Positions 18,756 through 31,617 of a stretch of DNA of 64,000 bases are shown in pieces (position 1 is the first letter of the stretch; each line of letters opens with the position of its first letter). This stretch comes from Salmonella phage vB_SenS-3. Location: the sequence record OR896822.1; one strand, written 5' to 3'. The notes beneath the pieces were generated by a model, which searched no databases, had not been told where the DNA came from, and saw only the letters and a list, made by a program, of their open reading frames with translations. The translations under genes were made by a program, and so were the position numbers.

Positions 18756-18830
18756 CGGGGTGTAGTCTAAGGGATAGGCAGGAGTCTTCTAAATTCCTTT
18801 ATGCAGGTTCGAATCCTGTCACCTCGGCCA
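18756..18830 (+). tRNA. tRNA-Arg (anticodon TCT)
   Basis: Hand-folded cloverleaf: acceptor CGGGGTG/CACCTCG, T-loop TTCGAAT, anticodon loop CTTCTAA, CCA encoded. Confidence 0.65.
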
Positions 18831-18856
18831 ATCTTATTACCTGTTAGGAAAATAAA

Positions 18857-19057
18857 ATGAAAACACGATATATAGTAAAAGTAGTAGGTGAACATTCGCA
18901 AGTAAATACCACGGATGTTACAGCACTAGCATTTGAGGTAGTCTCCGGTATAGTCATATTTCATAATGGGGATATCAAAGCTCCTGAATTTGCTGTGGAT
19001 GCTGGCCTGTTTATTTCTGCAACTAAAGTAACTGTAGTAGCTAACTCTTCTAAATAA
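18857..19057 (+). CDS. hypothetical protein
   Basis: 66-aa ORF. Confidence 0.35.
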   Translation: MKTRYIVKVVGEHSQVNTTDVTALAFEVVSGIVIFHNGDIKAPEFAVDAGLFISATKVTVVANSSK

Positions 19058-19068
19058 TAAGGAAATAT

Positions 19069-20013
19069 ATGTTTACTAAAAACACTAAAGAACTGACTTC
19101 TGAGCAAAAAGTAATTCGTACTATTAAACGTTGGGGTGTTGGTGCTGCTATTAGTCTTGGTGCTCTTATTCTGGCTCTCAATTCCTATACAGTTGTTCAG
19201 GATGGTACTGTTAAGACCCAAACCTTCCTGGGTAAAGTTAGCCCTAATCCTGTATTGCCAGGCTTCCATATTGTTAACCCATTTGCTTCTTTTGATACTT
19301 TTAGTACGAAAGATATTTCCATGAAACTGGATAAACTTCAGGTTCCTAGCCAGGATAAGTTTAAGTCCACTGTTGACATTACCGTTATGTTGCAGTTTGA
19401 TGGTGCTAAAGCTCCTATGAACCGTGTTAACGCAGGTACTCAGGATCAAGCTCTGAACAAGTACGTTGAAGAGAAGATGCTGTCTACGATTCGTGAGTTT
19501 GGTAAGTCTGTACCAAAAGCACAAGATCTGTTCGACGCTAAGATTCAGGCTCAACTGCAAACCGCTATTCAGCAAGAAGTAGAAGAGTATGCGCGTCCTT
19601 ATGGTTACACCGTTAAGCAAGTATTCCTTCAGGATATTACTCTGCCACCGGTAATCATGGAACAGGTACAGAACACCAAAGTTCGTGAAGAACAAGTTAA
19701 CGCTGCAAAAGCTGAACTGGCTCGTGTTGAACAAGAAGCACAGCAGAAAGTTAAGCAAGCTGAGGCGGATCGTTCCGCTCGTGAAAACATGGCAGTAGCT
19801 AACGAACGTGACGCAGATGCTAAACTGTACGCAGCTAAGAAAGAAGCTGAAGCTAACGCCGCTCTGCAACGTACCATTACTCCTGAAATGATTCGTTGGA
19901 AGCAGCTGGAAGTTGAAATGCTTCGTGCTGAAAAATACCAAGGTGGTGTACCACAGACTGTTGTCGGTACTGGCTACGATGGTCAAATGATCATGGATAT
20001 GCGTAACAAGTAA
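19069..20013 (+). CDS. SPFH/band-7 (prohibitin/HflK-like) membrane protein
   Basis: N-terminal TM then VVQDGTVKTQTFLGK band-7 core and long coiled-coil Ala/Glu/Gln-rich C-terminus. Confidence 0.65.
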   Translation: MFTKNTKELTSEQKVIRTIKRWGVGAAISLGALILALNSYTVVQDGTVKTQTFLGKVSPNPVLPGFHIVNPFASFDTFSTKDISMKLDKLQVPSQDKFKSTVDITVMLQFDGAKAPMNRVNAGTQDQALNKYVEEKMLSTIREFGKSVPKAQDLFDAKIQAQLQTAIQQEVEEYARPYGYTVKQVFLQDITLPPVIMEQVQNTKVREEQVNAAKAELARVEQEAQQKVKQAEADRSARENMAVANERDADAKLYAAKKEAEANAALQRTITPEMIRWKQLEVEMLRAEKYQGGVPQTVVGTGYDGQMIMDMRNK

Positions 20014-20046
20014 TAGTTACACGTAATCTTCGAACCAAGCCCGCGT

Positions 20047-20082
20047 TTCCTTCGAGAGCGCGGGCTTTTCTGTATTTAAGGC
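20047..20082 (+). terminator. rho-independent terminator
   Basis: GCCCGCG...CGCGGGC stem followed by TTTTCTGTATTT. Confidence 0.6.
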
Positions 20083-20217
20083 AAAAGAAAAAGCCCATAA
20101 GTTATTCAACTAAGGTCTTTAGTATTTAATTCTTTAGAATCATATACTATTATTGCAGCAACAACGTGCTAACCTTAAGTGCCCTGCGATTTTCCTCTAA
20201 AAAGTTAAAAAATTCGA

Positions 20218-20246
20218 TTGCTTGAATGCTAAATTCTCTGTATAAT
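20218..20246 (+). promoter_or_regulatory. early-type promoter (TTGCTT N17 TATAAT)
   Basis: Upstream of nadR-pnuC. Confidence 0.55.
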
Positions 20247-20276
20247 ATATTTATAAATTTGAGAGAGGAATCAAAT

Positions 20277-21332
20277 ATGATTAAGACTGGTCTAGTAATT
20301 GGTAAGTTCGCACCATTAACGCGTGGTCATATTAACCTAATAAACACAGCAGCAACTATGTGTGAACGAGTTATTGTTGTAGTTAGTCATGATAATCGTT
20401 GGCTGGATAAGCAGAACACACGTGATAAGGAAGTATTACAGTTAAAGAATCGACTTCGTTGGTTAGAACAAACTTACGCGGATATTGAGCACATTTCGGT
20501 AGAGTACATTATTGAAGATGATATTCCTGAATATCCGAATGGTTGGCCGGAATATGCTAGAATCCTTAATGAAAATTACGGACATTTGCCTGAGATCACC
20601 GTTTTCTCTAGCGAACTAGACTATGATGCAGAATATAAGAAATATCTGCCGAAGTTTGGTCATTATATTGTAGATTCTGATCGGACTCGTGTTCCAATCT
20701 CAGCTACAATGATTCGTAATGATCTTATGAAGTATTGGGAGTTTCTTCCTAGCGTAGTTCGTAAAGATTACGTGCGTAAGGTTGTAATCATTGGGACTGA
20801 AAGCTCGGGAAAGACTACTTTAACAAAATACCTTGCGAAGCTATACAACACTTCGTGGGTAGAAGAATATGGTCGAACGTATTGTGAAGTTGATCTAGTT
20901 GGTAACGAAAATCTGCTTACCAGCGAAGATTATAGTAAAATTGCGTTCAGACACAAAGAGCTAGAGTTTGAAGCAGAACGTACTGCAAATAAGATCATGT
21001 TTGTGGATACAAATGCTTTTATTACTGAGTTCTACCACAGACTTTATGAACATAGTAAGAATCCTGTGGTTACAGCAATTGCAAAAGAAGAACATTATGA
21101 TTTAGTAATTGTTCTAGCGCCTACTGTCAAGTGGGTAGATGATGGTTTACGTATTAACTCCGATCGTTCAATTACTTCTGAACTATTCGAGCAGATGAAG
21201 AAAGAATTTCCAAATCAGTTCCCTGAAGGGCGTACTGTTTACATCGACTCTCCGGACTACAAAGTTCGTATGGACGAAGCAGTAAACGCAGTAGACTGGC
21301 TGATTCATCACTTTAACGTTGGAGAGTTTTAA
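20277..21332 (+). CDS. nadR: NadR-like bifunctional NMN adenylyltransferase / ribosylnicotinamide kinase
   Basis: GKFAPLTRGH nucleotidyltransferase motif plus IIGTESSGKTT P-loop; ATG 20277. Confidence 0.75.
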   Translation: MIKTGLVIGKFAPLTRGHINLINTAATMCERVIVVVSHDNRWLDKQNTRDKEVLQLKNRLRWLEQTYADIEHISVEYIIEDDIPEYPNGWPEYARILNENYGHLPEITVFSSELDYDAEYKKYLPKFGHYIVDSDRTRVPISATMIRNDLMKYWEFLPSVVRKDYVRKVVIIGTESSGKTTLTKYLAKLYNTSWVEEYGRTYCEVDLVGNENLLTSEDYSKIAFRHKELEFEAERTANKIMFVDTNAFITEFYHRLYEHSKNPVVTAIAKEEHYDLVIVLAPTVKWVDDGLRINSDRSITSELFEQMKKEFPNQFPEGRTVYIDSPDYKVRMDEAVNAVDWLIHHFNVGEF

Positions 21333-21333
21333 T

Positions 21334-21990
21334 ATGACTAACTATCTCGTAAATGACTTTAAAAACTGGAAACCTCTGGAATATCTGTGGCTGTTCATAG
21401 CGGTTGTCTTCATTAGTTTAGCAAACTATAATGGTACAGCTCTAGATTGGGCTACTGCAATAACCAATGTGGTTTGTGTTATTCTGGTTGCAAAAGGACG
21501 TATTTCCAACTATATTTGGGGCTTAGTGGGTGTTCTTACATATGGTATTACAGCTTTAAACGCAGATCTTTATGGTAACGCTGCACTAAACCTGCTATAC
21601 TACGTTCCTATGCAGTTTTATGGAATGTACTTATGGCATAAAAATAAGCCAAGTAATCTGCCAGATGTTCCAACTAAGGTTCTGACTAAAGCCCAAGCTC
21701 TGCTGACTCTAGGGATTCTAGCAGTAGCCACGTTAGGGTATGGTAGTTTCTTAGCTACTACGGCTGATCCATTTCCAATGTTGGATGCATTTACTGCTGT
21801 AGGTAGTGTGATCGCTATGTGGCTTATGGTTAAGCAATATGCCGAGCAGTGGCTGATCTGGATTGCTATTAACATTGGTACTGTGTACATTTGGCTTGTA
21901 ACTGCTCAATCTACAGGTGCATCTTATGCAATCCTAGCAATGTGGCTAGTATTCTTAGGTAACTCTATTATAGGAGCCTATAAAGGATAA
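21334..21990 (+). CDS. pnuC: PnuC-family nicotinamide riboside transporter
   Basis: Multi-TM protein with PnuC-like NxxxWxxG and LYYVPMQFYGMYLWHKN segments; immediately after nadR. Confidence 0.75.
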   Translation: MTNYLVNDFKNWKPLEYLWLFIAVVFISLANYNGTALDWATAITNVVCVILVAKGRISNYIWGLVGVLTYGITALNADLYGNAALNLLYYVPMQFYGMYLWHKNKPSNLPDVPTKVLTKAQALLTLGILAVATLGYGSFLATTADPFPMLDAFTAVGSVIAMWLMVKQYAEQWLIWIAINIGTVYIWLVTAQSTGASYAILAMWLVFLGNSIIGAYKG

Positions 21991-22018
21991 TTTGTACGCG
22001 TTAACAAATAAAGTAGTT

Positions 22019-22040
22019 ATAGCCCTCGCTTAGAGGGCTA
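22019..22040 (+). terminator. hairpin terminator candidate
   Basis: TAGCCCTC GCTTA GAGGGCTA stem-loop after pnuC. Confidence 0.5.
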
Positions 22041-22058
22041 TTATACAGAAATTTTCAC

Positions 22059-22087
22059 TTGCTTAATATAGAAAATTTCTGTATAAT
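22059..22087 (+). promoter_or_regulatory. early-type promoter (TTGCTT N17 TATAAT)
   Basis: Same architecture. Confidence 0.55.
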
Positions 22088-22117
22088 ATATTTATAAATT
22101 TGAGAGAGGAATCAAAT

Positions 22118-22414
22118 ATGAAACGCATTGTACTTGCATTGACTCTAGTATCTACTTCTGTATTTGCTGCTCCACAACAGGAACTTTGTCAAGTTCAAGT
22201 TTGTAATAAGCTAGAACGATTTACTCTAGACATTTGGTCCCACATTAAAGATAATATGGGTGAACAGTGTTTTGATATTGTTCTGCCAAAAGAACAAGCT
22301 GTTCCTGGGGCTGTTCTCAGCTCAGAATCACGTTGGTGGCAAGGTTCTTCTATCAACCCAACTAAGAAGTCAGTGACACGTATCAAACAAGTATATCAGT
22401 GCAACGTTCAGTAA
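22118..22414 (+). CDS. hypothetical secreted protein
   Basis: Signal peptide MKRIVLALTLVSTSVFAAP; Cys-containing. Confidence 0.45.
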   Translation: MKRIVLALTLVSTSVFAAPQQELCQVQVCNKLERFTLDIWSHIKDNMGEQCFDIVLPKEQAVPGAVLSSESRWWQGSSINPTKKSVTRIKQVYQCNVQ

Positions 22415-22422
22415 AATTTCAC

Positions 22423-22451
22423 TTGCTTAATGCCTAAATTTTCTGTATAAT
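22423..22451 (+). promoter_or_regulatory. early-type promoter (TTGCTT N17 TATAAT)
   Basis: Upstream of HNH gene and tRNAs. Confidence 0.55.
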
Positions 22452-22484
22452 ATATTCATAAATTTGGAAGATTAGGAACTATTT

Positions 22485-22994
22485 ATGTTAGACTATGAGT
22501 CTATACTTTATAGATTCCGTTTAGAAGATGGTGTACTGGTGTGGAATCCGCTCTCCGGAAACTCCAGAGAGGAGAAGATATTTAATACTAAGTTTGCCAA
22601 TAAACCTGCGGGATCTTTGCACAAAAGCTCTGGGTATATCAGAGTTAACGTTGATCACCAAGATTACTTAGCTCATATCATAGTATTTATACTATATTAT
22701 GGGTATAGGCCGGAAATGGTTGATCATAAAGACTGCAATAAGTTAAATATACATCCTTTAAATTTAAGAGCAGCGGATAGTACCACTAATACTCATAATG
22801 CTAGTAAATCTTCTAGGAATACTAGCGGATTTAAGGGAGTATCCTACCACAAAGCATCTGGTCAGTGGCAGGGTAGAATAATGTTTAAAGGTAAGTCATA
22901 CTCCGCAGGGCTGCACAGTACTCCTGAAGCAGCAAATGAAGCTCTAATTCAACTGAGAGAGAAACTTCATGGGGAATATGCCCGAAATAATTAA
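22485..22994 (+). CDS. HNH homing endonuclease with AP2-like domain
   Basis: VDHKDCNKLN HNH motif and FKGVSYHKASGQWQGRI AP2-like segment; paralog of the 17125 gene. Confidence 0.7.
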   Translation: MLDYESILYRFRLEDGVLVWNPLSGNSREEKIFNTKFANKPAGSLHKSSGYIRVNVDHQDYLAHIIVFILYYGYRPEMVDHKDCNKLNIHPLNLRAADSTTNTHNASKSSRNTSGFKGVSYHKASGQWQGRIMFKGKSYSAGLHSTPEAANEALIQLREKLHGEYARNN

Positions 22995-23083
22995 GGAAGA
23001 ATAGCATAACGGTATTGCAGCAGATTGCTAATCTGTCGGTTTGAAACATAGCCTTGTGGGTTCGATTCCCACTTCTTCCGCCA
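22995..23083 (+). tRNA. tRNA-Ser (anticodon GCT)
   Basis: Acceptor GGAAGAA/TTCTTCC, long variable arm, anticodon loop TTGCTAA, T-loop TTCGATT, CCA. Confidence 0.7.
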
Positions 23084-23088
23084 AATTT

Positions 23089-23166
23089 GGTTCTCAAGCT
23101 CATTTGGTATGAGCCGTCGCCTCATAAGCGAAAGGTAGGTAGGTTCGAATCCTCCGGGAGCCACCA
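23089..23166 (+). tRNA. tRNA-Met/Ile2 type (anticodon CAT)
   Basis: Acceptor with two G-U pairs, anticodon loop CTCATAA, T-loop TTCGAAT, CCA; one T-stem mismatch. Confidence 0.5.
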
Positions 23167-23315
23167 GATAACTAGGAGACTTTATGTCACGCTTTCACGA
23201 AATTAAGCAAGAACTAGAAGAATGTATGTGTACTGAATGTTGGGGTTCTGGCACTTAATGTTCCAGTGACTGGATTCCCTGATTGGCTGCAAGGTTACGA
23301 ACTCTAACAAAATTT

Positions 23316-23401
23316 GGATCTGTGGTGGAATTGGCAATACACACCATGCTTAAAACGTGGCGCTTAAATGATTGAGGGTTCGAGCCCCTCCAGATCCACC
23401 A
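23316..23401 (+). tRNA. tRNA-Leu (anticodon TAA)
   Basis: Acceptor GGATCTG/CAGATCC, anticodon loop CTTAAAA, long variable arm, T-loop TTCGAGC, CCA. Confidence 0.65.
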
Positions 23402-23417
23402 AATTAAGGAAGTAAAA

Positions 23418-23552
23418 ATGAAATCTATTAAGAAAGCTATTCGTGAACTTATCCGTTGTCGCTTCCATAGCATCAAGGCTTCAACTAATGGTACTACTTA
23501 CGATCGCTACGATCGCTATGATCCTAAGTTTGGCTTACATTCTAAATAACTG
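23418..23552 (+). CDS. hypothetical small basic protein
   Basis: 44-codon ORF with AAGGAAG RBS directly after tRNA-Leu; not in ORF track (below 60 aa). Confidence 0.25.
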
Positions 23553-23562
23553 GAGAAAACAA

Positions 23563-23769
23563 ATGGCTAATCCTGAAATTACGGCACAACGTTTTATGCT
23601 GAAAGGAATTATTGCTGAAGCAGGCGTGACACAAGAAGTGGAAGATTTCCATAAGCAGTTCCTAAATATTCTCACTCAAGCCAAAGAGCTAGGAGAGAAA
23701 GAACATGGCGCGGCTATTATGGCAATCACATTGGTTGGGCTTGATCTGGCAGAAGAATCAGGAGTTTAA
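23563..23769 (+). CDS. hypothetical protein
   Basis: ATG with GGAG RBS inside track ORF 23443..23769. Confidence 0.3.
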   Translation: MANPEITAQRFMLKGIIAEAGVTQEVEDFHKQFLNILTQAKELGEKEHGAAIMAITLVGLDLAEESGV

Positions 23770-23798
23770 CTTCTCCAAGCAGAAATTTTAAAAATGTA

Positions 23799-23829
23799 CT
23801 TGCTTTTTACTTAAGATTTCTGCTATAAT
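23799..23829 (+). promoter_or_regulatory. early-type promoter (TTGCTT, TATAAT, 19-bp spacer)
   Basis: Slightly long spacer. Confidence 0.4.
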
Positions 23830-23858
23830 AGTTATATAAGTTGATGAGAGGAATCAGA

Positions 23859-26430: not shown

Positions 26431-26436
26431 AATTAT

Positions 26437-26513: not shown

Positions 26514-26715
26514 AACAAATAGAGTAAAGGCTACAGTAGGTGCACCCTTACGGACTGCTACACCGGACTCTATTCATTAACAAACATTCTAGCGTGGTGG
26601 AGAGGGGACACCAGCTGTGCGAGGGTAGAAGCTTGTTCGATTCAAGTGAAAGAATGGTTCTCGTAAATCCGCAGCAGTGATAGTAGGTTCAAGTCCTACC
26701 TAGATTGACTTATTA

Positions 26716-26790
26716 TGCGTTCGTAGTTAAAAGGTATAATTTTTGGTTGCCAACCAGAAGTTGAGGGTTCGATTCCCTCCGACCGCACCA
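26716..26790 (+). tRNA. tRNA-Gly (anticodon GCC)
   Basis: Anticodon loop TTGCCAA, T-arm GAGGG TTCGATT CCCTC, acceptor 6/7, CCA. Confidence 0.55.
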
Positions 26791-27041
26791 AATTTAGGTT
26801 TCTGCTTCCTAGAGAACGGACTCCTAGATAAACAAGGCGATGAGTTTCCGGCCGGTTCTAGTCGCTGAAAATCCTCCCGACCAGGTAGGTGTAGGTAAAC
26901 GAAAGTTTACTTATTGAGTAGGTTCCGATAGATCGGCGGATCTATTCTGGCATTTAAGAGAAGTCTCGCAAACTTCTTTGTCAGCAGAGCGTTTGAAGCG
27001 TGAGGTGGCCTACACAATAAGTAAATTTATTAAAAACTCAT

Positions 27042-27070
27042 TTGCTATTTCACTTAATTCTCTTTATAAT
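27042..27070 (+). promoter_or_regulatory. early-type promoter (TTGCTA N17 TATAAT) driving tRNA operon
   Basis: tRNA-Pro begins 33 nt downstream. Confidence 0.55.
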
Positions 27071-27102
27071 ATATCTTATAAAGTGAGTTAACAAAGAATA
27101 TT

Positions 27103-27180
27103 CTCCGTGTAGCTCAGTTTGGCCAGAGCGTTCCGTTTGGGGCGGTAGGGTCGGGGGTTCAAATCCTCCCACGGAGACCA
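27103..27180 (+). tRNA. tRNA-Pro (anticodon TGG)
   Basis: Acceptor CTCCGTG/CACGGAG, anticodon loop TTTGGGG, T-loop TTCAAAT, CCA. Confidence 0.6.
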
Positions 27181-27186
27181 AACAAT

Positions 27187-27264
27187 TGCGGGTTAGATCT
27201 CTGGTAGAGATCGCTAGTCTCATAAGCTAGAAAGAGGTAGGTTAGATTCCTACACCCGCTTCCA
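27187..27264 (+). tRNA. tRNA-Met (anticodon CAT)
   Basis: D-stem GATC/GATC, anticodon arm CTAGT CTCATAA GCTAG, T-loop TTAGATT, CCA. Confidence 0.55.
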
Positions 27265-27283
27265 ATTTAATAGAGGATACGAA

Positions 27284-27447
27284 ATGAAATTATTTCGATT
27301 GGTAGTAAGTGATAGACGGTCTAGCAAAGATCGTTCGAAGTATACCTTAGCCCATTATGGGAAAGATGAAAATGAAGTAATGGCTGAATTTGGTATTAAT
27401 CATCGCTACTTAGAAGTTTACTCTATTAAGGAAGTTTATCCGTATTA
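27284..27447 (+). CDS. hypothetical small protein
   Basis: 54-codon ORF between tRNAs with AGAGGA RBS. Confidence 0.3.
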
Positions 27448-27448
27448 A

Positions 27449-27526
27449 GGGTCGTTAGCTCAATTGGTTAGTAGCACTTGCCTTTTAAGCAATAGGTTGA
27501 AGGTTCGAGTCCTTCACGACCCACCA
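27449..27526 (+). tRNA. tRNA-Lys (anticodon TTT)
   Basis: Acceptor GGGTCGT/ACGACCC, anticodon loop CTTTTAA, T-arm GAAGG TTCGAGT CCTTC, CCA. Confidence 0.65.
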
Positions 27527-27535
27527 AATTACTTT

Positions 27536-27609
27536 GCTCGGTTAGTTTAATGGGAGAACCCCGTCTTTACACGGCGGTTGCGATAGTTCGATTCTATCAC
27601 CGAGTACCA
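27536..27609 (+). tRNA. tRNA-Val (anticodon TAC)
   Basis: Anticodon arm CCGTC TTTACAC GGCGG, T-arm GATAG TTCGATT CTATC, CCA. Confidence 0.6.
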
Positions 27610-27634
27610 ATTAACTCAAAATAAGGAATTGCAA

Positions 27635-27988
27635 ATGCAATTATCAAGCAAGATTCAAGGCTATTTTGGTCATGTAACAATGGAGTTCGCTATCTCTAAA
27701 GGTTGGGATTTCGAGCAAGATCTAGCTGAGTTCTACAAAGATATTGATCTGAACGTACCATACATGGGACTCTCCACTGGTCAAGAGATCACAGAAGGCG
27801 ATGTGTTCAAGGCAAGTCAAGGTGAGGTAACACCTAGTTTTGCCAAGTTCTGGTTAGGACTTACTTTGAAGGAAGATGCACCAGAGGATGGTGTGGTTAT
27901 GCAGAGTATGCACTCTGGAAGCTCTGATTACCTTTTCGTTAGCGACGTTAAGGAACTACAAGAAATCGCTAAAAATGTACTTGCTTGA
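27635..27988 (+). CDS. hypothetical protein
   Basis: ATG 27635 after AAGGA RBS. Confidence 0.45.
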   Translation: MQLSSKIQGYFGHVTMEFAISKGWDFEQDLAEFYKDIDLNVPYMGLSTGQEITEGDVFKASQGEVTPSFAKFWLGLTLKEDAPEDGVVMQSMHSGSSDYLFVSDVKELQEIAKNVLA

Positions 27989-28009
27989 TGCTTAATTTCT
28001 TGTTATAAT
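27981..28009 (+). promoter_or_regulatory. early-type promoter (TTGCTT N17 TATAAT) driving 250-nt leader plus tRNAs
   Basis: No ORF for 260 nt downstream, then tRNA-Ala pair. Confidence 0.55.
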
Positions 28010-28271
28010 ATTTATATAAATTGATGAGGAGAAATCCTCATCAAAGTTCACTAAGGTATTAGCTCGACCTAGGGCTGGCTGCCAAAAAGCACAATTGCAA
28101 TTAGACCCCTAATGGCGGGGGATACTTTGCAATAAGTTCTAGATTAGTCCACTAGATTCAGTGGCAACTGAATAGTGTATCGGGTTTGTGAAGAGCGGTT
28201 ATCCTCTACTGGCTAATGTCTGAGGGTAATACGCACACCGAGCTAATAGCCTTAGTAAACTTAAAGATTTT

Positions 28272-28350
28272 GGGGAATGGGTCTGCTTGGAGTGGACACC
28301 TCGCTTGCACCGAGGATATCAGAAGAGTTCGAATCTCTTATTCTCCACCA
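28272..28350 (+). tRNA. tRNA-Ala (anticodon TGC), copy 1
   Basis: G3:U70 pair in acceptor, anticodon arm CCTCG CTTGCAC CGAGG, T-loop TTCGAAT, CCA. Confidence 0.55.
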
Positions 28351-28355
28351 AATTC

Positions 28356-28431
28356 GGGGTCATAGGTTATTTGGTTAAACTTACTGCCTTGCAAGCAGTG
28401 GAACTCAGTTCAATTCTGAGTGACTCCACCA
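28356..28431 (+). tRNA. tRNA-Ala (anticodon TGC), copy 2
   Basis: G3:U70 pair, anticodon arm ACTGC CTTGCAA GCAGT, T-arm CTCAG TTCAATT CTGAG, CCA. Confidence 0.6.
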
Positions 28432-28450
28432 AACAAATTAAGGAAATAAT

Positions 28451-28669
28451 ATGGTATTCTTAGCAGCCTCTGTAGTTCTTGCAGCTTTAGCACTAGCTAT
28501 CTATTTTAGAACTATTAAAGATTTAGCTAAAGAAAAGAAAACTTTCTTTACTGATTATTCTTGGGGCGCTCCATATAACGTCCGCTTTATCAGCTTAGAA
28601 GCTATGCTGATAATGGTATTCAGTGGCATAGGTTCCATTGTTGCAGGGTTACTATTTATTTCTAACTAA
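28451..28669 (+). CDS. hypothetical membrane protein
   Basis: 72 aa, two hydrophobic helices. Confidence 0.4.
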   Translation: MVFLAASVVLAALALAIYFRTIKDLAKEKKTFFTDYSWGAPYNVRFISLEAMLIMVFSGIGSIVAGLLFISN

Positions 28670-28685
28670 ATAAAATGGGGATGTG

Positions 28686-28766
28686 GCGAAATTGGCAGAC
28701 GCGCTAGATTTAGGTTCTAGTCTTCGGGTGTGGGTTCGAGTCCCTCCATCCCTACCAAACATTGGA
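28686..28766 (+). tRNA. tRNA-Leu (anticodon TAG)
   Basis: D-arm GGCGAAATTGGCAGACGC, anticodon arm CTAGA TTTAGGT TCTAG, long variable arm, CCA. Confidence 0.7.
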
Positions 28767-28782
28767 TTAACTCATGATGAAA

Positions 28783-28950
28783 ACTCCTATAACTGATATC
28801 TGGTTAGCTGTTAATACATCAACTAAAGAGTATGTGTTTATAGAGTATGGTCAGAGGTATGACCAAAAGATGTATAATCTCATACTTCCAGTATCTGCTA
28901 ATGAAGTTTATGATTTAATCCTGAGATCTACGGAAGAGCAAATCGATTAG
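28783..28950 (+). CDS. hypothetical small protein
   Basis: 55-codon ORF between tRNAs; 3' end overlaps next tRNA candidate. Confidence 0.25.
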   Translation, partial: TPITDIWLAVNTSTKEYVFIEYGQRYDQKMYNLILPVSANEVYDLILRSTEEQID

Positions 28951-29024
28951 GTGACGAAAACCGCTTGGAAAGTGGCTGACTTGTTAAAGCAGGCTTGAGA
29001 ATTCGAATCTCTCTTCTTCCGCCA
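28932..29024 (+). tRNA. class II tRNA, tentatively tRNA-Ser (anticodon GGA)
   Basis: Acceptor GGAAGAG/TTCTTCC, T-loop TTCGAAT, CCA; anticodon arm assignment uncertain. Confidence 0.4.
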
Positions 29025-29045
29025 AACAACTAATAGGGAATATAA

Positions 29046-29288
29046 ATGAAAGTCAAGATTATGATGTTGGATTTAGCTAATGATAAGTTTTTCTTGCGTC
29101 ATACATTCCCTAGTAAGCAAGCTTTAGAGTTTCATATCAAGTACGCAATAGGCATGAAACTTCCTGAGCGAGAAATATTTGATAAAGCATGTGATACTGG
29201 AGTTATTTATGTATGGCAAACAACCTATCATGATAATCCAGAAGATCTTCGAAAAGAAGTAGAACAAATACTAGAAGATAGGACGTAG
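29046..29288 (+). CDS. hypothetical protein
   Basis: 80-aa ORF; 3' end overlaps tRNA-Ser(TGA) 5' end. Confidence 0.4.
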   Translation: MKVKIMMLDLANDKFFLRHTFPSKQALEFHIKYAIGMKLPEREIFDKACDTGVIYVWQTTYHDNPEDLRKEVEQILEDRT

Positions 29289-29362
29289 TGGTATGTAACC
29301 GGTCTTGAAAACCGGCCCGCTGTAGTGATACGGTGATGGTTCGACTCCATTATCTTCTGCCA
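29273..29362 (+). tRNA. tRNA-Ser (anticodon TGA)
   Basis: Acceptor AGAAGAT/ATCTTCT, perfect anticodon arm CCGGT CTTGAAA ACCGG, long variable arm, T-loop TTCGACT, CCA. Confidence 0.6.
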
Positions 29363-29687
29363 AATCTTGAAGTATGCCGGAATCGGTAGACGGGGCTTCC
29401 TAAAGGGCGTAAGGGGAACATCCACTCCTCATAAGATACCCGAAAACGAGGCTGAGATAACTGGTCTATCTCGTGAAGGTTCGAGTCCTTCTGCTTCTTG
29501 ATATTCATCAATGGCTCAAAGTGTAACGGTGCTATTTGATGCTCTTAGTAAGACTTTCCCGACATGCGTTCGGGAGTAAGCTGCTAAGGCTAGAGTAGAA
29601 GAGTTTCGGAGAGCCGCCACAATTGAAGTCTTTAGAATGGGTATCGCCCTTTAGCCCCTCCGAAAGGGATAACTAGAGATTTCAATT

Positions 29688-29764
29688 GTGGTTATATCAT
29701 AATTGGTTAATGATCCTGATTGTGAATCAGGCCTATGTGGATTCGAATTCCACTAACCACCCCA
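29688..29764 (+). tRNA. tRNA-His (anticodon GTG)
   Basis: Acceptor GTGGTTA/TAACCAC, anticodon arm CCTGA TTGTGAA TCAGG, T-arm GTGGA TTCGAAT TCCAC, CCA. Confidence 0.7.
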
Positions 29765-29770
29765 AATATT

Positions 29771-29845
29771 GCGTCCTTATTTCAATGGAAAGAATGTAAA
29801 GCTACGAACTTTACGATCGGGGTTCGATTCCCTGAGGATGCACCA
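29771..29845 (+). tRNA. tRNA-Arg (anticodon ACG)
   Basis: Anticodon arm GTAAAG CTACGAA CTTTAC, T-loop TTCGATT, CCA. Confidence 0.65.
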
Positions 29846-29869
29846 ATTAACTTATACAGGAACTAAAAT

Positions 29870-30070
29870 ATGGCTGATTTCTGCAAAGAATGCTCTATCG
29901 ATATGTGGGGCAAAGATACTGGTGATCTTTCTGGTCTGATTACAGAAGCCGAAGTTAAAGAAGGCTATGGTGCTGTTGTAATCTGTGAAGGTTGTGGTAT
30001 TATTCGTGTTGACCATAATGGTAAACGTCTAGAAGAACCAGATCCAATTGCCACGGTTCCTGTAGAATAA
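29870..30070 (+). CDS. hypothetical Cys-containing protein
   Basis: 66 aa; CKEC...CEGC pairs. Confidence 0.4.
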   Translation: MADFCKECSIDMWGKDTGDLSGLITEAEVKEGYGAVVICEGCGIIRVDHNGKRLEEPDPIATVPVE

Positions 30071-30077
30071 AAATTAT

Positions 30078-30153
30078 TGGGATGTAGATCAATTGGCAGA
30101 TCGTCGGCCTCTGACTCCGAAGGTTCCACGTTCGATCCGTGGCATCCCAGCCA
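30078..30153 (+). tRNA. tRNA-Gln (anticodon CTG)
   Basis: 5' U start, D-stem GATC/GATC, anticodon loop CTCTGAC, T-arm CCACG TTCGATC CGTGG, CCA. Confidence 0.65.
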
Positions 30154-30159
30154 AACAAT

Positions 30160-30235
30160 TGGAGAGTAGTGTAACGGTTAGCACAACGGCCTTTGACTCC
30201 GTTAATGGTAGGTTCGATTCCTCCTTCTCCAGCCA
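30160..30235 (+). tRNA. tRNA-Gln (anticodon TTG)
   Basis: Acceptor TGGAGAG/TTCTCCA, anticodon loop CTTTGAC, T-loop TTCGATT, CCA. Confidence 0.6.
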
Positions 30236-30241
30236 ATTTAT

Positions 30242-30316
30242 GCGTGATTAGTTCAGTGGCTAGAATAACTGGCTTCCAACCAGTAGACACGAGTTCGACT
30301 CTCGTATCCCGCACCA
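30242..30316 (+). tRNA. tRNA-Gly (anticodon TCC)
   Basis: Anticodon arm ACTGG CTTCCAA CCAGT, T-arm ACGAG TTCGACT CTCGT, acceptor 6/7, CCA. Confidence 0.65.
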
Positions 30317-30332
30317 AATATAAGGAAACGTT

Positions 30333-30554
30333 ATGGACGTTTTTGAGTTTCGTAATAAAAACCCCAATAGACGAGTTTTAATTATTGGTGAAACATATAG
30401 AGCTTATGAGCAAGAAGATGGTTCGGTTTTATTAAATGATGAAAAACAAGGCTATAGCTTTCATCCAGAAGAAACATATGAAGAATTTCGTACTAAGTTT
30501 CTTTTACCAGACTGGCTAGCAATAGCTGAGCAAAGAGAATCCAAAGATGGCTGA
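30333..30554 (+). CDS. hypothetical protein
   Basis: 73-aa ORF after tRNA-Gly. Confidence 0.4.
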   Translation: MDVFEFRNKNPNRRVLIIGETYRAYEQEDGSVLLNDEKQGYSFHPEETYEEFRTKFLLPDWLAIAEQRESKDG

Positions 30555-30711
30555 TAATCTAAAGCTAAAAGTAGATAAACGAATGAAGTGCGTTGAGGTT
30601 GAGTTGGGTGAAGAACGTTTAAAACTCTCCTTCGAATTCTTACAGCAGTTGGCTATGACAGTAATGTCTGATAAGTCTCCTGTATTTGAAAAAGAAATCC
30701 CGTTGAAATAA
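30547..30711 (+). CDS. hypothetical small protein
   Basis: 54-codon ORF overlapping previous stop; followed by CCCGTTGAAATAACGGG hairpin. Confidence 0.25.
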   Translation: MADNLKLKVDKRMKCVEVELGEERLKLSFEFLQQLAMTVMSDKSPVFEKEIPLK

Positions 30712-30720
30712 CGGGTTTAT
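30698..30720 (+). terminator. hairpin terminator candidate
   Basis: CCCGTT GAAATA ACGGG followed by TTTATT. Confidence 0.5.
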
Positions 30721-30721
30721 T

Positions 30722-30796
30722 GCTCCTAAAGCATTGCTGGCGATGCAGTTGCCTTGTAAGCATCTGAACCGGGTTCGATTCCTGGTGGGAGCACCA
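30722..30796 (+). tRNA. tRNA-Thr (anticodon TGT)
   Basis: Acceptor GCTCCTA/TGGGAGC, anticodon loop CTTGTAA, T-arm CCGGG TTCGATT CCTGG, CCA. Confidence 0.6.
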
Positions 30797-30811
30797 AATT
30801 TAAAAATTCAT

Positions 30812-30840
30812 TTGCCTTCTCTCTTATTTCTTGTTATAAT
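30812..30840 (+). promoter_or_regulatory. early-type promoter (TTGCCT N17 TATAAT)
   Basis: Same architecture. Confidence 0.5.
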
Positions 30841-30870
30841 ATTTATATAAATTAATGAGAGGGAAACCAA

Positions 30871-31164
30871 ATGAAACGTTATCTTTCTGTCGTATTCCAA
30901 ACGGGTGGTCAACGCTACACTTATGAATTTCCTGAGTCCTGGAAAATTAAAGAAGGTGATCAAGTTGTTGTATTAACACCTCGTGAAGGCTTCAAAGTAG
31001 TAACGGTTAAACAAGTATTTCCAAAAGATCACGAACCATCTAAGTCTATTCAGTACAAGATGATTCATGGTCTAGTTCGTAAAGTACCACGAACTGAGGT
31101 AGAAGTAGATAAGACTGGTGAAGCTAAATACCAGTATACTTCTTACTTAGACGAGTTGTTATAA
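30871..31164 (+). CDS. hypothetical protein
   Basis: 97 aa; promoter at 30812. Confidence 0.45.
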   Translation: MKRYLSVVFQTGGQRYTYEFPESWKIKEGDQVVVLTPREGFKVVTVKQVFPKDHEPSKSIQYKMIHGLVRKVPRTEVEVDKTGEAKYQYTSYLDELL

Positions 31165-31370
31165 TGAGAATTACTTTCACAGAAAAGATTATGGGCAATG
31201 GTGTTATGATCATTACCGCATGGGATGGTAATCAGTGGTGTAGTGTTTCAGGTATTAAGCCTGAAGAACAAACACTAGAAAATATCTCAAAGATTAAGCG
31301 AAGAATGGCAGAACGTGCACGACTTCCAGGTGCTCCTAGAAATGGTAAACGTTCTGCAATTAAATGTTAA
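31164..31370 (+). CDS. hypothetical protein
   Basis: 68 aa, ATGA overlap with previous gene. Confidence 0.4.
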   Translation: MRITFTEKIMGNGVMIITAWDGNQWCSVSGIKPEEQTLENISKIKRRMAERARLPGAPRNGKRSAIKC

Positions 31371-31371
31371 T

Positions 31372-31448
31372 GCTTCGGTAGCTTAGCGATCTAAAGCACT
31401 CGGCTGATAACCGAGAGATCGGGGGTTTAAATCCCTCCCGGAGTACCA
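31372..31448 (+). tRNA. tRNA-Ile (anticodon GAT)
   Basis: Anticodon arm CTCGG CTGATAA CCGAG, T-loop TTTAAAT, acceptor with G-U pairs, CCA. Confidence 0.6.
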
Positions 31449-31544
31449 AATTTAGGAAGTAAGACTATGCGTCCAGGAAAGTTTAAAAAAGCTAATTGGT
31501 CTAAAGAGTATAAAGAATACTTACTTAGTCTAGTAAAACATAAT

Positions 31545-31617
31545 AGTTAGTTGGCAGAGAGGTTATGCACCTCCTTCATACGGAGCGCCTACAGTGGTTC
31601 AAATCCACTACTAACTA
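31545..31617 (+). tRNA. tRNA with anticodon CAT (third CAT tRNA), CCA not encoded
   Basis: Acceptor AGTTAGT/ACTAACT, anticodon loop TTCATAC, T-arm AGTGG TTCAAAT CCACT. Confidence 0.45.

What the first reader, a model, noticed from the sequence alone, without database searches (positions are those of the whole stretch)
18756..31617. Large tRNA cluster with duplicated isoacceptors and interleaved HNH endonucleases
About 30 tRNA genes, all on the + strand, in roughly 13 kb. There appear to be two tRNA-Ala(TGC) copies 6 nt apart, three CAT-anticodon tRNAs (initiator, elongator and Ile2 types are possible), both Lys, both Gln and both Gly isoacceptors, and at least three Ser tRNAs. Three HNH endonuclease genes sit inside the cluster (one overlapping the 5' end of tRNA-Asp), and several tRNA 5' ends overlap the preceding ORF stop. 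HNH endonucleases in the tRNA region of T5 are known site-specific nickases.
Basis: partly seen in the sequence, partly recalled or inferred. Interest (0 to 1): 0.5.

Follow-up and report, generated by a model that had tools for sequence, protein, structure and literature searches.

The report
T5-type phage tRNA gene cluster
This is the well-known tRNA gene region of a T5-like Salmonella phage: about 30 tRNA genes that let the phage translate its own AT-rich genes and escape host tRNA-cutting defences, with selfish HNH homing-endonuclease genes between them. Virtually identical genomes are already in GenBank.

Summary
Window 18756-31620 carries 30 co-oriented tRNA genes covering all 20 amino acids. 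ARAGORN and/or Rfam. tRNA-Trp and tRNA-Ser(GGA) are recognised only by orthology to tRNAs annotated in phage T5.

The stretch is 99.9% identical to Salmonella phages RA40, PMBT36 and vB_SenS-3 (Epseptimavirus, Demerecviridae). It is syntenic, gene for gene, with the annotated and experimentally studied T5 tRNA region.

- The two tRNA-Ala(TGC) genes are 5 nt apart. They are different lineages (52/70 aligned bases identical), not a duplication.
- Only two HNH genes (22485-22994, 25784-26365) lie inside the stated coordinates. The third (17125-17607) is 1.1 kb upstream.
- Two ORF stops lie inside tRNAs, two abut a tRNA start, and two end 1-2 nt before one.

Nine T5-type early promoters drive mixed ORF-tRNA transcripts. 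[quoted passage not shown]

HNH gene 25784-26365 is a presence/absence insertion linked to a swapped tRNA-Asp allele, as expected for a homing endonuclease.

Verdict: real, correctly interpreted, already known. Low interest.

The parts
17125..17607 (+). HNH homing endonuclease gene (160 aa), upstream of the stated range, with its own T5-type promoter at 17090-17118
   Evidence: Pfam HNH_3 at 46.8 bits. PHROG_99 HNH at 3e-44. 37% identical to T5 hegF and 44% to the 22485 ORF.
17645..17718 (+). tRNA-like element that is not a decoding tRNA. ARAGORN calls it 'SeC tca'. It is homologous to the 5' part of the T5 stable RNA 'RNAX'.
   Evidence: The T-stem covaries across genera, but the 'anticodon' arm is not conserved and there is no CCA.
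18756..18830 (+). tRNA-Arg(TCT)
   Evidence: 74/75 identical to T5 tRNA-Arg.
22485..22994 (+). HNH+AP2 homing endonuclease gene (169 aa). Its stop abuts tRNA-Ser(GCT). It has its own promoter at 22423-22451, followed by a partial copy of the tRNA-Ser 5' end.
   Evidence: Pfam HNH_3 at 34.9 bits plus an AP2 match. PHROG_99 at 1.5e-51. 36% identical to T5 F-TflVI. Junction sequences.
22995..23166 (+). tRNA-Ser(GCT) at 22995-23083 and a CAT tRNA of the T5 Ile2 type at 23089-23166
   Evidence: 88/89 identical to T5 Ser3 and 67/78 to T5 tRNAI2(CAU).
23316..23401 (+). tRNA-Leu(TAA), which T5 lacks
24326..24650 (+). Array of Tyr(GTA) 24326-24406, Glu(TTC) 24415-24489 (degenerate T-arm), Trp(CCA) 24499-24569 (odd D-arm) and Phe(GAA) 24576-24650, with 6-9 nt spacers
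   Evidence: Trp is 68/71 and Phe 75/75 identical to T5. The Tyr allele is 93% identical to that of Klebsiella phage Sugarland.
25181..25491 (+). tRNA-Cys(GCA) at 25181-25256 and tRNA-Asn(GTT) at 25409-25491. The Asn tRNA has an extra 3-bp variable hairpin.
25784..26365 (+). NUMOD4+HNH (I-HmuI-like) homing endonuclease gene (193 aa). Its TAG stop lies 10 nt inside tRNA-Asp. It is a 591-bp insertion relative to phages misterkot and T5.
26356..26513 (+). tRNA-Asp(GTC) at 26356-26430, an allele different from the T5/misterkot one, and tRNA-Lys(CTT) at 26437-26513
26583..26709 (+). Homologue of T5 'RNA2', a tRNA-like stable RNA of unknown function. Relaxed ARAGORN mis-calls part of it as Arg(gcg).
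   Evidence: 84% identical to T5 RNA2.
26717..26790 (+). tRNA-Gly(GCC)
27103..27264 (+). tRNA-Pro(TGG) at 27103-27180 and an initiator-type CAT tRNA at 27187-27264
   Evidence: 76/78 identical to T5 tRNAfM. U1.U72 mismatch and A11:U24 seen.
27449..27609 (+). tRNA-Lys(TTT) at 27449-27526 and tRNA-Val(TAC) at 27536-27609
28272..28431 (+). tRNA-Ala(TGC) copy 1 at 28272-28350 (T5-family type) and copy 2 at 28356-28431 (FelixO1-like). Both have G3:U70.
28677..29362 (+). tRNA-Leu(TAG) at 28677-28757, weak tRNA-Ser(GGA) at 28933-29024 and tRNA-Ser(TGA) at 29273-29362
29369..29687 (+). Three structured non-coding RNAs homologous to the T5 stable RNAs RNA1 (29369-29497, tRNA-like with an extended anticodon arm), RNAI (29513-29619) and RNAIII (hairpin from 29617)
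   Evidence: Twelve of 40 RNA1 pairs show compensatory changes. No Rfam family matches.
29688..29845 (+). tRNA-His(GTG) at 29688-29764 and tRNA-Arg(ACG) at 29771-29845
30078..30316 (+). tRNA-Gln(CTG), tRNA-Gln(TTG) and tRNA-Gly(TCC), with 6-nt spacers
30722..30796 (+). tRNA-Thr(TGT). Its anticodon stem-loop is identical to that of T5 tRNA-Thr.
31372..31620 (+). tRNA-Ile(GAT) at 31372-31448 and the elongator-type CAT tRNA at 31545-31620, the only gene that does not encode CCA
20218..30840 (+). Eight of the nine T5-type early promoters (A-tract, TTGCTT, 17 nt, TATAAT), starting at 20218, 22059, 22423, 23800, 24933, 27042, 27981 and 30812. The ninth is at 17090. A strong terminator lies at 20037-20067.
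   Evidence: The window has 24 such promoters against 0.36 expected in shuffles. They align with promoters annotated in T5.

Best explanation
This is the tRNA gene region of a T5-like (Epseptimavirus) Salmonella phage.

Transcription (inferred from sequence and T5 annotation). Nine strong sigma-70 early promoters transcribe the region rightward as mixed small-ORF/tRNA polycistrons. Host RNase P and 3'-processing enzymes would release 30 tRNAs, 29 of which have a genome-encoded CCA end.

Decoding (computed here). The set covers all 20 amino acids. It consists mainly of U34 and G34 species and can read about 85-97% of phage codons. It includes every A-ending codon that this 40%-GC phage over-uses relative to an enterobacterial host: AGA, CTA, ATA, GGA and TTA.

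Function (shown for T5, inferred here). The set keeps translation running when host tRNAs are limiting, no longer made, or cut by tRNA-targeting defence nucleases such as PARIS AriB and retron-Eco7/Septu PtuAB. The phage copies carry changes at the sites those nucleases recognise.

HNH genes (inferred). These are free-standing homing endonucleases, selfish elements inserted exactly at tRNA gene borders. They borrow tRNA promoters and have their stop codon at or inside the downstream tRNA, so tRNA processing would limit their expression. They drive allele replacement and mosaicism of the cluster between co-infecting phages.
For: Identity and synteny:
- 18000-32000 is 99.9% identical over 14 kb to phages RA40, PMBT36 and vB_SenS-3, and 668 phage records match.
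- Gene order matches the T5 annotation.
- 14 of the tRNAs are at least 91% identical to their T5 counterparts.

Expression signals:
- Nine T5-type promoters lie on the tRNA strand, and the window has 24 against 0.36 expected.
- 29 of 30 genes encode CCA, and adjacent tRNAs have 5-9 nt spacers.

Decoding:
- The set reads 85.1% of 14,583 phage codons by strict wobble and 96.8% with cmo5U wobble.
- The six unread codons are all depleted in the phage.
- AGA, AGG, CTA, ATA, GGA and TTA are enriched 2.5- to 7.6-fold (log2 1.3-2.9) as a fraction of their amino acid's codons, and each has a phage tRNA.

Defence evasion:
- E. coli tRNA-Lys has U36-A-A-U39-C-A41. The window tRNA-Lys(UUU) has G39, and the window tRNA-Thr(UGU) has G39 with a stem-loop identical to T5's.
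- T5 tRNA-Lys, Thr and Asn neutralise PARIS, and a U39 substitution abolishes AriB cleavage (PMC11464382, PMC12409363).
- T5 tRNA-Tyr resists retron-Eco7/Septu through its variable loop (PMC13096335). The window's Tyr has yet another variable region.

HNH genes:
- Domain hits support all three.
- The D-H...N...H motif is present.
- The 25784 gene is a 591-bp insertion relative to misterkot and T5. It is linked to a tRNA-Asp allele whose acceptor, D and T arms differ while the anticodon arm is identical.
- 57 records carry gene plus allele together.
- The stop-in-tRNA arrangement was already interpreted as expression control for T4 SegB and the T5 F-Tfl enzymes (PMC2330249).
- Homing endonucleases are described as the main source of differences among T5-like genomes (PMC10644984).
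Against: - No expression, charging or nuclease-resistance data exist for this phage. Function is transferred from T5.
- Several genes are non-canonical. Glu has two T-stem mismatches and an aberrant T-loop, whereas the same allele in phage ende is canonical.
- Ser(GGA) has A53.C61, and Rfam does not detect Trp. Some of these may be inactive.
- The window's tRNA-Asn has exactly the E. coli anticodon stem-loop, so it is not obviously AriB-resistant.
- The host codon table came from 42 E. coli K-12 genes rather than Salmonella.
- The T5 tRNA region is dispensable in the laboratory (PMC11464382), so any benefit is conditional.
Confidence: 0.88

Rival explanations
1. Codon-usage compensation alone. 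The tRNAs exist only to supplement host tRNAs for the A/T-ending codons that an AT-rich phage prefers. They play no role against host defences.
For: Every strongly enriched codon (AGA, AGG, CTA, ATA, GGA, TTA, CCA, ACA, GTA) has a matching phage tRNA, and every unread codon is depleted. This is the classical view cited for T5-like phages (PMC3326045, PMC10644984).
Against: The set also includes tRNAs for codons that are not rare in the host and are already well served, such as Lys-UUU, Phe, Asp, Glu, Met and fMet. It is close to a complete decoding set, which goes beyond compensation. Experiments show T5 tRNA-Lys, Thr, Asn and Tyr are needed specifically against PARIS and retron-Eco7 (PMC11464382, PMC12409363, PMC13096335). 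The window's Lys and Thr copies carry the position-39 change.
Confidence: 0.2
2. Anti-defence is the main driver. The cluster is chiefly a library of nuclease-resistant tRNA variants, possibly with tRNA-like decoy RNAs. Homing endonucleases shuffle alleles between phages, and codon matching is a side effect of AT-richness.
For: Position-39 substitutions occur in Lys(UUU), Lys(CUU) and Thr. The Tyr allele has an altered variable region and G37. Many same-anticodon genes are unrelated alleles rather than diverged orthologues, including Tyr, Glu, Asn, Asp, Pro, both Gln tRNAs and Gly-TCC. Alleles resembling those of Felixounavirus and Klebsiella phages occur. The literature is as above.
Against: The Asn stem-loop equals the host's. 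Known nucleases hit only a handful of tRNAs, yet 30 are kept. No resistance data exist for these alleles.
Confidence: 0.35
3. Largely decaying or selfish DNA. Many of the tRNA genes are non-functional remnants kept only as landing pads and targets for homing endonucleases.
For: Glu, Ser(GGA) and Trp are structurally aberrant. T5's own annotation marks one Gln tRNA as a pseudogene and lists several tRNA-like RNAs of unknown function. The region is deletable in T5 (PMC11464382).
Against: 25 genes score 40-65 bits on the tRNA model. Structures are kept through compensatory changes between alleles. Trp is nearly invariant across four phages while its flanks diverge. 29 of 30 keep CCA. Many T5 tRNAs work as suppressors when their anticodon is changed, according to the T5 record notes.
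Confidence: 0.05

Closest known systems
Salmonella phages RA40 (OR242313), PMBT36 (PP926504) and vB_SenS-3 (MT004791), genus Epseptimavirus
   Same: 99.9% nucleotide identity over the whole 14-kb stretch, with the same tRNAs, HNH genes and small ORFs.
   Different: The differences are in annotation only. PMBT36 lists one Ala and omits His, Ser(TGA), Trp and the 25784 HNH gene. vB_SenS-3 annotates no tRNAs and calls spurious ORFs across them.
Escherichia phage T5 tRNA gene region (NC_005859, about 28.0-40.9 kb), with the heg/F-Tfl HNH endonucleases and stable RNAs
   Same: The gene order is the same, from Arg through Ser-Ile2, Tyr-Glu-Trp-Phe, Cys, Asn, Asp, Pro-fMet, Lys-Val, Ala-Leu, Ser-Ser and His to Gln-Gln-Gly, Thr and Ile-Met. 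It shares the promoter type, the tRNA-like stable RNAs (RNA1, RNAI, RNAIII, RNA2, RNAX 5' end), HNH genes whose 3' ends overlap tRNAs, and an early-region location.
   Different: The window has five extra genes: Leu-TAA, Lys-CTT, Gly-GCC, Arg-ACG and a second Ala. About half of the shared tRNAs are unrelated alleles. The HNH genes sit at different junctions (before Ser-GCT and Asp, rather than after Ile2 and before Ser2 and Gln2) and are only 31-43% identical.
Phage T4/T6 tRNA cluster with the GIY-YIG homing endonuclease SegB
   Same: A homing endonuclease sits inside a phage tRNA array, with its ORF ends removed by tRNA processing. It cleaves tRNA genes of relatives that lack it and so spreads the surrounding tRNA genes (PMC2330249). 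It can also amplify tRNA-Tyr to beat Septu (PMC13096335). Stable RNAs of unknown function lie in that array too.
   Different: The nuclease family differs (GIY-YIG versus HNH). The T4 array is much smaller (8 tRNAs). No cleavage-site data exist for the enzymes here.
I-HmuI (PDB 1U3E), nicking HNH homing endonuclease of Bacillus phage SPO1
   Same: The 25784 ORF aligns over its N-terminal domain and HNH motif (E = 2e-4, residues 8-102) and shares the NUMOD4+HNH layout.
   Different: I-HmuI is intron-encoded, whereas this gene is free-standing between an ORF and a tRNA. Similarity is low, and nicking was not tested.

Membership tests
T5-like (Demerecviridae) tRNA gene region | Nucleotide homology and conserved gene order with the T5 tRNA region | tested here: met
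   The alignment with NC_005859 is collinear, and 14 tRNAs are at least 91% identical to their T5 counterparts.
T5-like (Demerecviridae) tRNA gene region | All tRNAs co-oriented in the early region behind T5-type sigma-70 promoters | tested here: met
   Nine TTGCTT-N17-TATAAT promoters lie on the + strand, matching promoters annotated in T5.
T5-like (Demerecviridae) tRNA gene region | Interspersed tRNA-like stable RNAs (RNA1, RNAI, RNAIII, RNA2, RNAX) | tested here: met
   Homologues sit at 29369-29687, 26583-26709 and 17645-17718.
T5-like (Demerecviridae) tRNA gene region | Early expression and dispensability in the laboratory | not testable with these tools
   Known for T5 only (PMC3326045, PMC11464382).
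Canonical tRNA (Rfam RF00005) | Cloverleaf score at or above the gathering score of 29 bits | tested here: met
   27 of the 30 genes reach it. Ser(TGA) instead matched the tRNA-Sec model of the same clan and is called by ARAGORN.
Canonical tRNA (Rfam RF00005) | The same criterion applied to Trp 24499-24569 and Ser(GGA) 28933-29024 | tested here: not met
   Rfam gives no hit for Trp at E<=1 or for Ser(GGA) at E<=5, and ARAGORN finds them only at -ps90. They are accepted as genes by orthology to T5 tRNA-Trp (68/71) and tRNA-Ser2, by their encoded CCA, and by the near-invariance of Trp.
Bacterial initiator tRNA-fMet (for CAT tRNA 27187-27264) | Mismatch at positions 1:72 | tested here: met
   U1.U72 in the ARAGORN structure.
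Bacterial initiator tRNA-fMet (for CAT tRNA 27187-27264) | Three consecutive G:C pairs at the bottom of the anticodon stem (29-31:39-41) | tested here: not met
   The stem is CUAGU/GCUAG, so only G30:C40 is present. The T5 gene annotated as initiator is 76/78 identical, so it shares this deviation.
Bacterial initiator tRNA-fMet (for CAT tRNA 27187-27264) | A11:U24 pair | tested here: met
   The D-stem is GAUC/GAUC.
tRNA-Ile2 (lysidine-modified CAU) (for CAT tRNA 23089-23166) | CAU anticodon plus recognition by TilS and IleRS | tested here: inconclusive
   Identity to E. coli ileX, metT and metZ is equally low at 50-53 of 78. The assignment rests on 67/78 identity to T5 tRNAI2(CAU) and on ATA being 3.8-fold more frequent in the phage than in the host. 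Modification cannot be tested here.
HNH (His-Me finger) free-standing homing endonuclease, HNH_3/I-HmuI group | HNH_3 domain above the Pfam gathering score | tested here: met
   17125 ORF scores 46.8 bits and 22485 ORF 34.9 bits, against a cut-off of 24.8.
HNH (His-Me finger) free-standing homing endonuclease, HNH_3/I-HmuI group | The same criterion for the 25784 ORF | tested here: inconclusive
   HNH_3 scores 18.5 bits, below 24.8, but NUMOD4 scores 24.2, above 23.4. PHROG_59 HNH gives 1e-22, I-HmuI gives E = 2e-4, and identity to T5 hegD is 43%.
HNH (His-Me finger) free-standing homing endonuclease, HNH_3/I-HmuI group | Catalytic D-H ... N ... H/N motif intact | tested here: met
   The motifs read VDHKD..N..NLR..N, VDHKD..NLR..H and VDHIN..NNL..H.
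HNH (His-Me finger) free-standing homing endonuclease, HNH_3/I-HmuI group | Presence/absence polymorphism among close relatives, with altered flanking target | tested here: met
   The 25784 gene is absent from misterkot and T5 at the same junction and is linked to a different tRNA-Asp allele. The slot before Ser(GCT) holds a different ORF in misterkot and T5.
HNH (His-Me finger) free-standing homing endonuclease, HNH_3/I-HmuI group | Site-specific nicking or cleavage and biased inheritance | not testable with these tools
   This needs biochemistry and phage crosses.
AriB (PARIS)-resistant phage tRNA | Substitution in the U36-A-A-U39-C40|A41 recognition and cleavage motif | tested here: met
   Lys(UUU) has G39 and Thr(UGU) has G39, the latter with a stem-loop identical to T5's. 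The motif definition is from PMC12409363.
AriB (PARIS)-resistant phage tRNA | The same criterion for tRNA-Asn(GUU) | tested here: not met
   The window's Asn stem-loop GGACUGUUAAUCC equals that of E. coli asnT. It differs only by an extra variable hairpin.

The most novel reading that the evidence does not exclude
The cluster may be more than a tRNA supply. On this reading, its conserved non-decoding tRNA-like RNAs act as decoys or inhibitors of host tRNA-targeting nucleases. These RNAs are the RNA1 homologue at 29369-29497, which has an extended covarying 'anticodon' arm and an invariant apical loop, the RNA2 homologue, and the 17645 element. The HNH endonucleases would use tRNA genes as homing sites, actively moving nuclease-resistant tRNA alleles (Asp, Ala2, Tyr) between T5-like, FelixO1-like and Klebsiella phages. 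My evidence shows the structures, the covariation and the HNH-allele linkage, but nothing about function.
Probability: 0.12. Interest if true: 0.55.

Novelty: already known. Interest (0 to 1): 0.12.

Why it matters
It matters little as a discovery. The T5 tRNA region has been mapped since the 1980s and is annotated in hundreds of Demerecviridae genomes, and this exact sequence is in GenBank.

Its current relevance is as a worked example of the arms race between phage tRNAs and host tRNA nucleases (PARIS, retron-Eco7/Septu). This phage carries alternative Lys, Tyr, Asn and Asp alleles and an extra Lys(CUU). These could be tested for resistance spectra different from T5's, which is useful when choosing therapeutic Salmonella phages.

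Public annotations of its closest relatives are also incomplete or wrong in this region: tRNAs are missing, spurious ORFs are called over tRNAs, and one element is annotated as 'tRNA-Sec'.

Tried and rejected
1. Opal-suppressor or selenocysteine tRNA at 17645-17718. Rejected. The 'anticodon' arm is not conserved: T5 reads differently there and ARAGORN calls the T5 copy 'Ser act', while Sugarland has a 14-nt insertion. There is no CCA and position 37 is a pyrimidine. Only the acceptor, D and T arms are conserved or covary.

2. 'tRNA-Arg(gcg)' at 26587-26655 from relaxed ARAGORN. Rejected as a tRNA. It is the homologue of the T5 stable RNA2.

3. ORF 18238-18747 as the third HNH gene. Rejected. 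It has no Pfam or PHROG hit and no similarity to the HNH ORFs.

4. Two Ala genes as a tandem duplication or a single gene. Rejected. Only 52/70 aligned bases are identical, and the two copies have different distributions among phages.

5. Typing the three CAT tRNAs by similarity to E. coli metT, ileX and metZ. Uninformative, since all comparisons give 44-53 identities.

6. Generic sigma-70 and terminator scan. Not enriched over shuffles: 33 promoter-like sites against 39 expected. The family-specific promoter consensus was needed instead.

7. Pfam scan of 18 small interspersed ORFs. Only domains of unknown function turned up (DUF7337, DUF7293, and a weak DUF7695), and no clue to function.

8. 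Confirming 'nickase' for the T5 F-Tfl enzymes in the held literature. Only 'site-specific endonucleases' could be confirmed.

Full report
**What is there.** ARAGORN finds 28 tRNA genes in the 64-kb window, all on the + strand. Twenty-seven lie between 18756 and 31618, and one is a weak 'tRNA-SeC(tca)' at 17645-17718. Rfam's tRNA model at its gathering score confirms 25 of the 27 and adds a tRNA-Glu(TTC) at 24415-24486. With permissive filters the first tRNA-Ala copy also passes (38.1 bits), and Ser(TGA) matches within the tRNA clan.

Two more genes appear only at a relaxed ARAGORN threshold, but both are orthologues of tRNAs annotated in phage T5:
- tRNA-Trp(CCA) at 24499-24569 is 68/71 identical to T5 tRNA-Trp. 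It is almost invariant in four phages while its neighbours diverge.
- tRNA-Ser(GGA) has its true frame at 28933-29024 (acceptor GGAAGAG/TTCTTCC). It aligns with T5 tRNA-Ser2 but has an A53.C61 mismatch.

The total is 30 genes in 12.9 kb, covering all 20 amino acids. Twenty-nine encode their CCA end, and adjacent genes are separated by 5-9 nt.

**Where it comes from.** Window 18000-32000 is 99.9% identical over its full length to Salmonella phages RA40, PMBT36 and vB_SenS-3 (Epseptimavirus, Demerecviridae), and 668 phage records match.

The richly annotated T5 genome shows the same gene order: Arg ... Ser3-Ile2 ... Tyr-Glu-Trp-Phe ... Cys ... Asn ... Asp ... Pro-fMet ... Lys-Val ... Ala-Leu ... 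Ser2-Ser1 ... His ... Gln2-Gln1-Gly ... Thr ... Ile1-Met. It also has HNH endonuclease genes (hegA, C, D) between tRNAs and several 'stable RNAs with unknown functions'.

Relatives carry 20-28 ARAGORN-detectable tRNAs in the same place. [quoted passage not shown]

**The specific claims.**

*Two Ala genes.* Both tRNA-Ala(TGC) genes are real and both have the G3:U70 identity pair. They are 5 nt apart, and only 52 of 70 aligned positions are identical.
- Copy 1 is the type found throughout T5-like phages. In T5, misterkot and Sugarland it is followed directly by tRNA-Leu.
- Copy 2 is 80-82% identical to the tRNA-Ala of Felixounavirus phages and is present in only a subset of T5-like genomes.
- It is therefore an acquired second allele, not a tandem duplication.

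*Three CAT tRNAs.* They match the T5 genes annotated Ile2(CAU) (67/78), initiator fMet (76/78) and elongator Met (73/76).
- The initiator-type gene has a 1:72 mismatch and A11:U24 but lacks the three G:C pairs of the anticodon stem.
- Similarity to the E. coli CAU tRNAs does not discriminate among the three. The Ile2 assignment rests on T5 orthology and on the phage's 3.8-fold higher use of ATA.

*HNH genes.* Three ORFs are HNH endonucleases:
- 17125-17607 has an HNH_3 domain.
- 22485-22994 has HNH_3 plus AP2 and is annotated F-TflVI-like in vB_SenS-3.
- 25784-26365 has NUMOD4 plus HNH, is 43% identical to T5 hegD, and matches the nicking enzyme I-HmuI at E = 2e-4.

Only the last two are inside the stated coordinates. 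ORF 18238-18747 is unrelated.

*ORF stops and tRNA starts.* The stop of 25784-26365 lies 10 nt inside tRNA-Asp. Another ORF stop lies 16 nt inside tRNA-Ser(TGA). Two stops abut a tRNA start exactly, and two end 1-2 nt before one. The same arrangement is annotated in T5. It was interpreted long ago as limiting endonuclease expression, because tRNA processing removes the stop codon (PMC2330249).

**Transcription.** A family-specific promoter (A-tract, TTGCTT, 17 nt, TATAAT, then a conserved leader with a Shine-Dalgarno sequence) occurs 24 times in the window, against 0.36 expected in shuffles. Twenty-two copies are on the + strand. Nine lie between 17090 and 30840, and they coincide with promoters annotated in T5. 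A strong terminator sits at 20037-20067. The tRNAs are thus co-transcribed with small ORFs, almost all of unknown function, from early promoters.

**What the tRNAs are for.** I compared 14,583 codons from 85 window ORFs with 14,748 codons from 42 E. coli K-12 genes.
- The phage set can read 85.1% of phage codons by strict wobble, and 96.8% if U34 in family boxes reads U as the host's cmo5U does.
- The six unread codons (ACC, CCC, CGG, CTC, GCC, GTC) are all depleted in the phage.
- The codons most enriched in the phage (AGA, AGG, CTA, ATA, GGA, TTA) each have a cognate phage tRNA.

This fits codon compensation and, more strongly, a nearly host-independent decoding set.

Recent experiments on T5 add a second function.
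- T5 tRNA-Lys(UUU), Thr(UGU) and Asn(GUU) neutralise the PARIS nuclease AriB, which cuts host tRNAs at 40|41 next to a U36-A-A-U39 motif. A U39 substitution alone abolishes cleavage (PMC11464382, PMC12409363).
- T5 tRNA-Tyr resists retron-Eco7/Septu PtuAB through its variable loop (PMC13096335).

In this window:
- tRNA-Lys(UUU) has G39 (T5 has A39).
- tRNA-Thr has a stem-loop identical to T5's (G39).
- tRNA-Lys(CUU) also has G39.
- tRNA-Tyr is a different allele with a short unpaired variable region and G37.
- tRNA-Asn has exactly the E. coli stem-loop plus an extra 3-bp variable hairpin. This Asn type is widespread in T5-like and large Klebsiella phages.

Transferring these functions to this phage is inference.

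**Mosaicism and the endonucleases.** Fourteen tRNAs are at least 91% identical to their T5 counterparts. Others with the same anticodon and position are unrelated alleles: Tyr, Glu, Asn, Asp, both Gln tRNAs and Gly-TCC, with Pro, Ala and Leu-TAG strongly diverged.

Relative to phage misterkot (same genus) the differences are block replacements at tRNA borders.
- HNH gene 25784-26365 is a clean 591-bp insertion between a conserved 61-aa ORF and tRNA-Asp.
- The tRNA-Asp next to it keeps the anticodon arm but has different acceptor, D and T arms.
- 57 records carry the gene and this allele together, at least one carries the allele without the gene, and the allele resembles Felixounavirus tRNA-Asp.
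- HNH gene 22485-22994 sits between a tRNA promoter and tRNA-Ser(GCT), preceded by a degenerate copy of the tRNA's first ten bases.

These are the hallmarks of free-standing homing endonucleases with co-conversion of flanking markers, as shown for SegB in the T4 tRNA cluster (PMC2330249). Cleavage specificity and nicking were not testable.

**Other structured RNAs in the region.** Homologues of the T5 stable RNAs are present.
- The RNA1 homologue (29369-29497) is 92% identical to the copy in Klebsiella phage Sugarland. It folds into a tRNA-like shape with an extended three-helix 'anticodon' arm and an invariant apical loop. Twelve of 40 pairs show compensatory changes in five phages.
- RNAI/RNAIII homologues follow at 29513-29687.
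- An RNA2 homologue lies at 26583-26709.
- The 17645 element keeps covarying acceptor and T arms but no conserved anticodon, so it is not an opal suppressor.
- None of these matches an Rfam family.

Their existence is known from T5. Their function is not.

**Verdict.** The feature is the already known T5-type tRNA gene region, in a phage whose sequence is already public. Interest is low. The only open questions are old ones that this locus does not newly expose: the function of the tRNA-like stable RNAs, and the targets of the HNH enzymes.

Noticed in passing
window 17645-17718: A tRNA-like element that ARAGORN calls 'tRNA-SeC(tca)' and that several GenBank records annotate as tRNA-Sec, tRNA-OTHER or tRNA-Undet. 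It is homologous to the 5' part of the T5 stable RNA 'RNAX'. The acceptor, D and T arms are conserved and the T-stem covaries (GTGGG/CCCAC, GTAGG/CCTAC, GCAGG/CCTGC). The anticodon arm is not conserved and there is no CCA. It is therefore a structured tRNA-like RNA, perhaps a processing signal, and not a suppressor tRNA.
   Followed up: partly
window 29369-29497: A homologue of T5 'RNA1'. It is a roughly 130-nt tRNA-like RNA with a Leu-type D-arm, a class-II variable hairpin, a T-arm, and a long three-helix 'anticodon' arm capped by an invariant loop (about ACAUCCAC). Twelve of 40 pairs show compensatory changes in five phages. It is 92% identical to the Klebsiella phage Sugarland copy and matches no Rfam family. 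Its function is unknown, and a decoy for tRNA nucleases is an untested idea.
   Followed up: partly
window 29513-29687 and 26583-26709: Homologues of the T5 stable RNAs RNAI (a closing stem followed by GCCA), RNAIII (a long hairpin whose 3' strand runs into tRNA-His) and RNA2.
   Followed up: partly
window 25409-25491: tRNA-Asn(GTT) with an extra 3-bp/4-nt variable hairpin (83 nt), which is unusual for a class I tRNA. Its anticodon stem-loop is identical to that of E. coli asnT. The same type occurs in more than 200 T5-like records, and at about 79% identity in 165-kb Klebsiella phages.
   Followed up: partly
window 24415-24489: This copy of tRNA-Glu(TTC) has a degenerate T-arm, with two stem mismatches and the loop UCCGAUU. 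The same allele in Salmonella phage ende has a canonical T-arm. The window version is nevertheless conserved in dozens of records. It is either a pseudogene or has an unusual fold.
   Followed up: partly
window 24326-24406: The tRNA-Tyr allele (81 nt, short unpaired variable region, G37) is 93% identical to that of Klebsiella phage Sugarland but only about 67% identical to the T5/misterkot allele. This suggests allele exchange across genera at a tRNA targeted by retron-Eco7/Septu.
   Followed up: partly
window 18238-18747: A 169-aa ORF immediately upstream of tRNA-Arg has no Pfam or PHROG match. It is 100% conserved in phage misterkot and absent from T5, which has the body of 'RNAX' at that position.
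   Followed up: no
window 19069-21990: Auxiliary metabolic genes are embedded between tRNA-Arg and the main array: an SPFH/Band-7 protein, a NadR-like NMN adenylyltransferase/ribosylnicotinamide kinase, and a PnuC transporter. A glycyl-radical (GrcA-like) gene follows the array at 31985-32353.
   Followed up: no
L001 (PMBT36) and L002 (vB_SenS-3), whole tRNA region: The public annotations of the nearest relatives are inconsistent. PMBT36 omits His, Ser(TGA), Ala copy 1, Trp and the 25784 HNH gene. vB_SenS-3 annotates no tRNAs and places small 'hypothetical protein' CDSs across many of them.
   Followed up: yes
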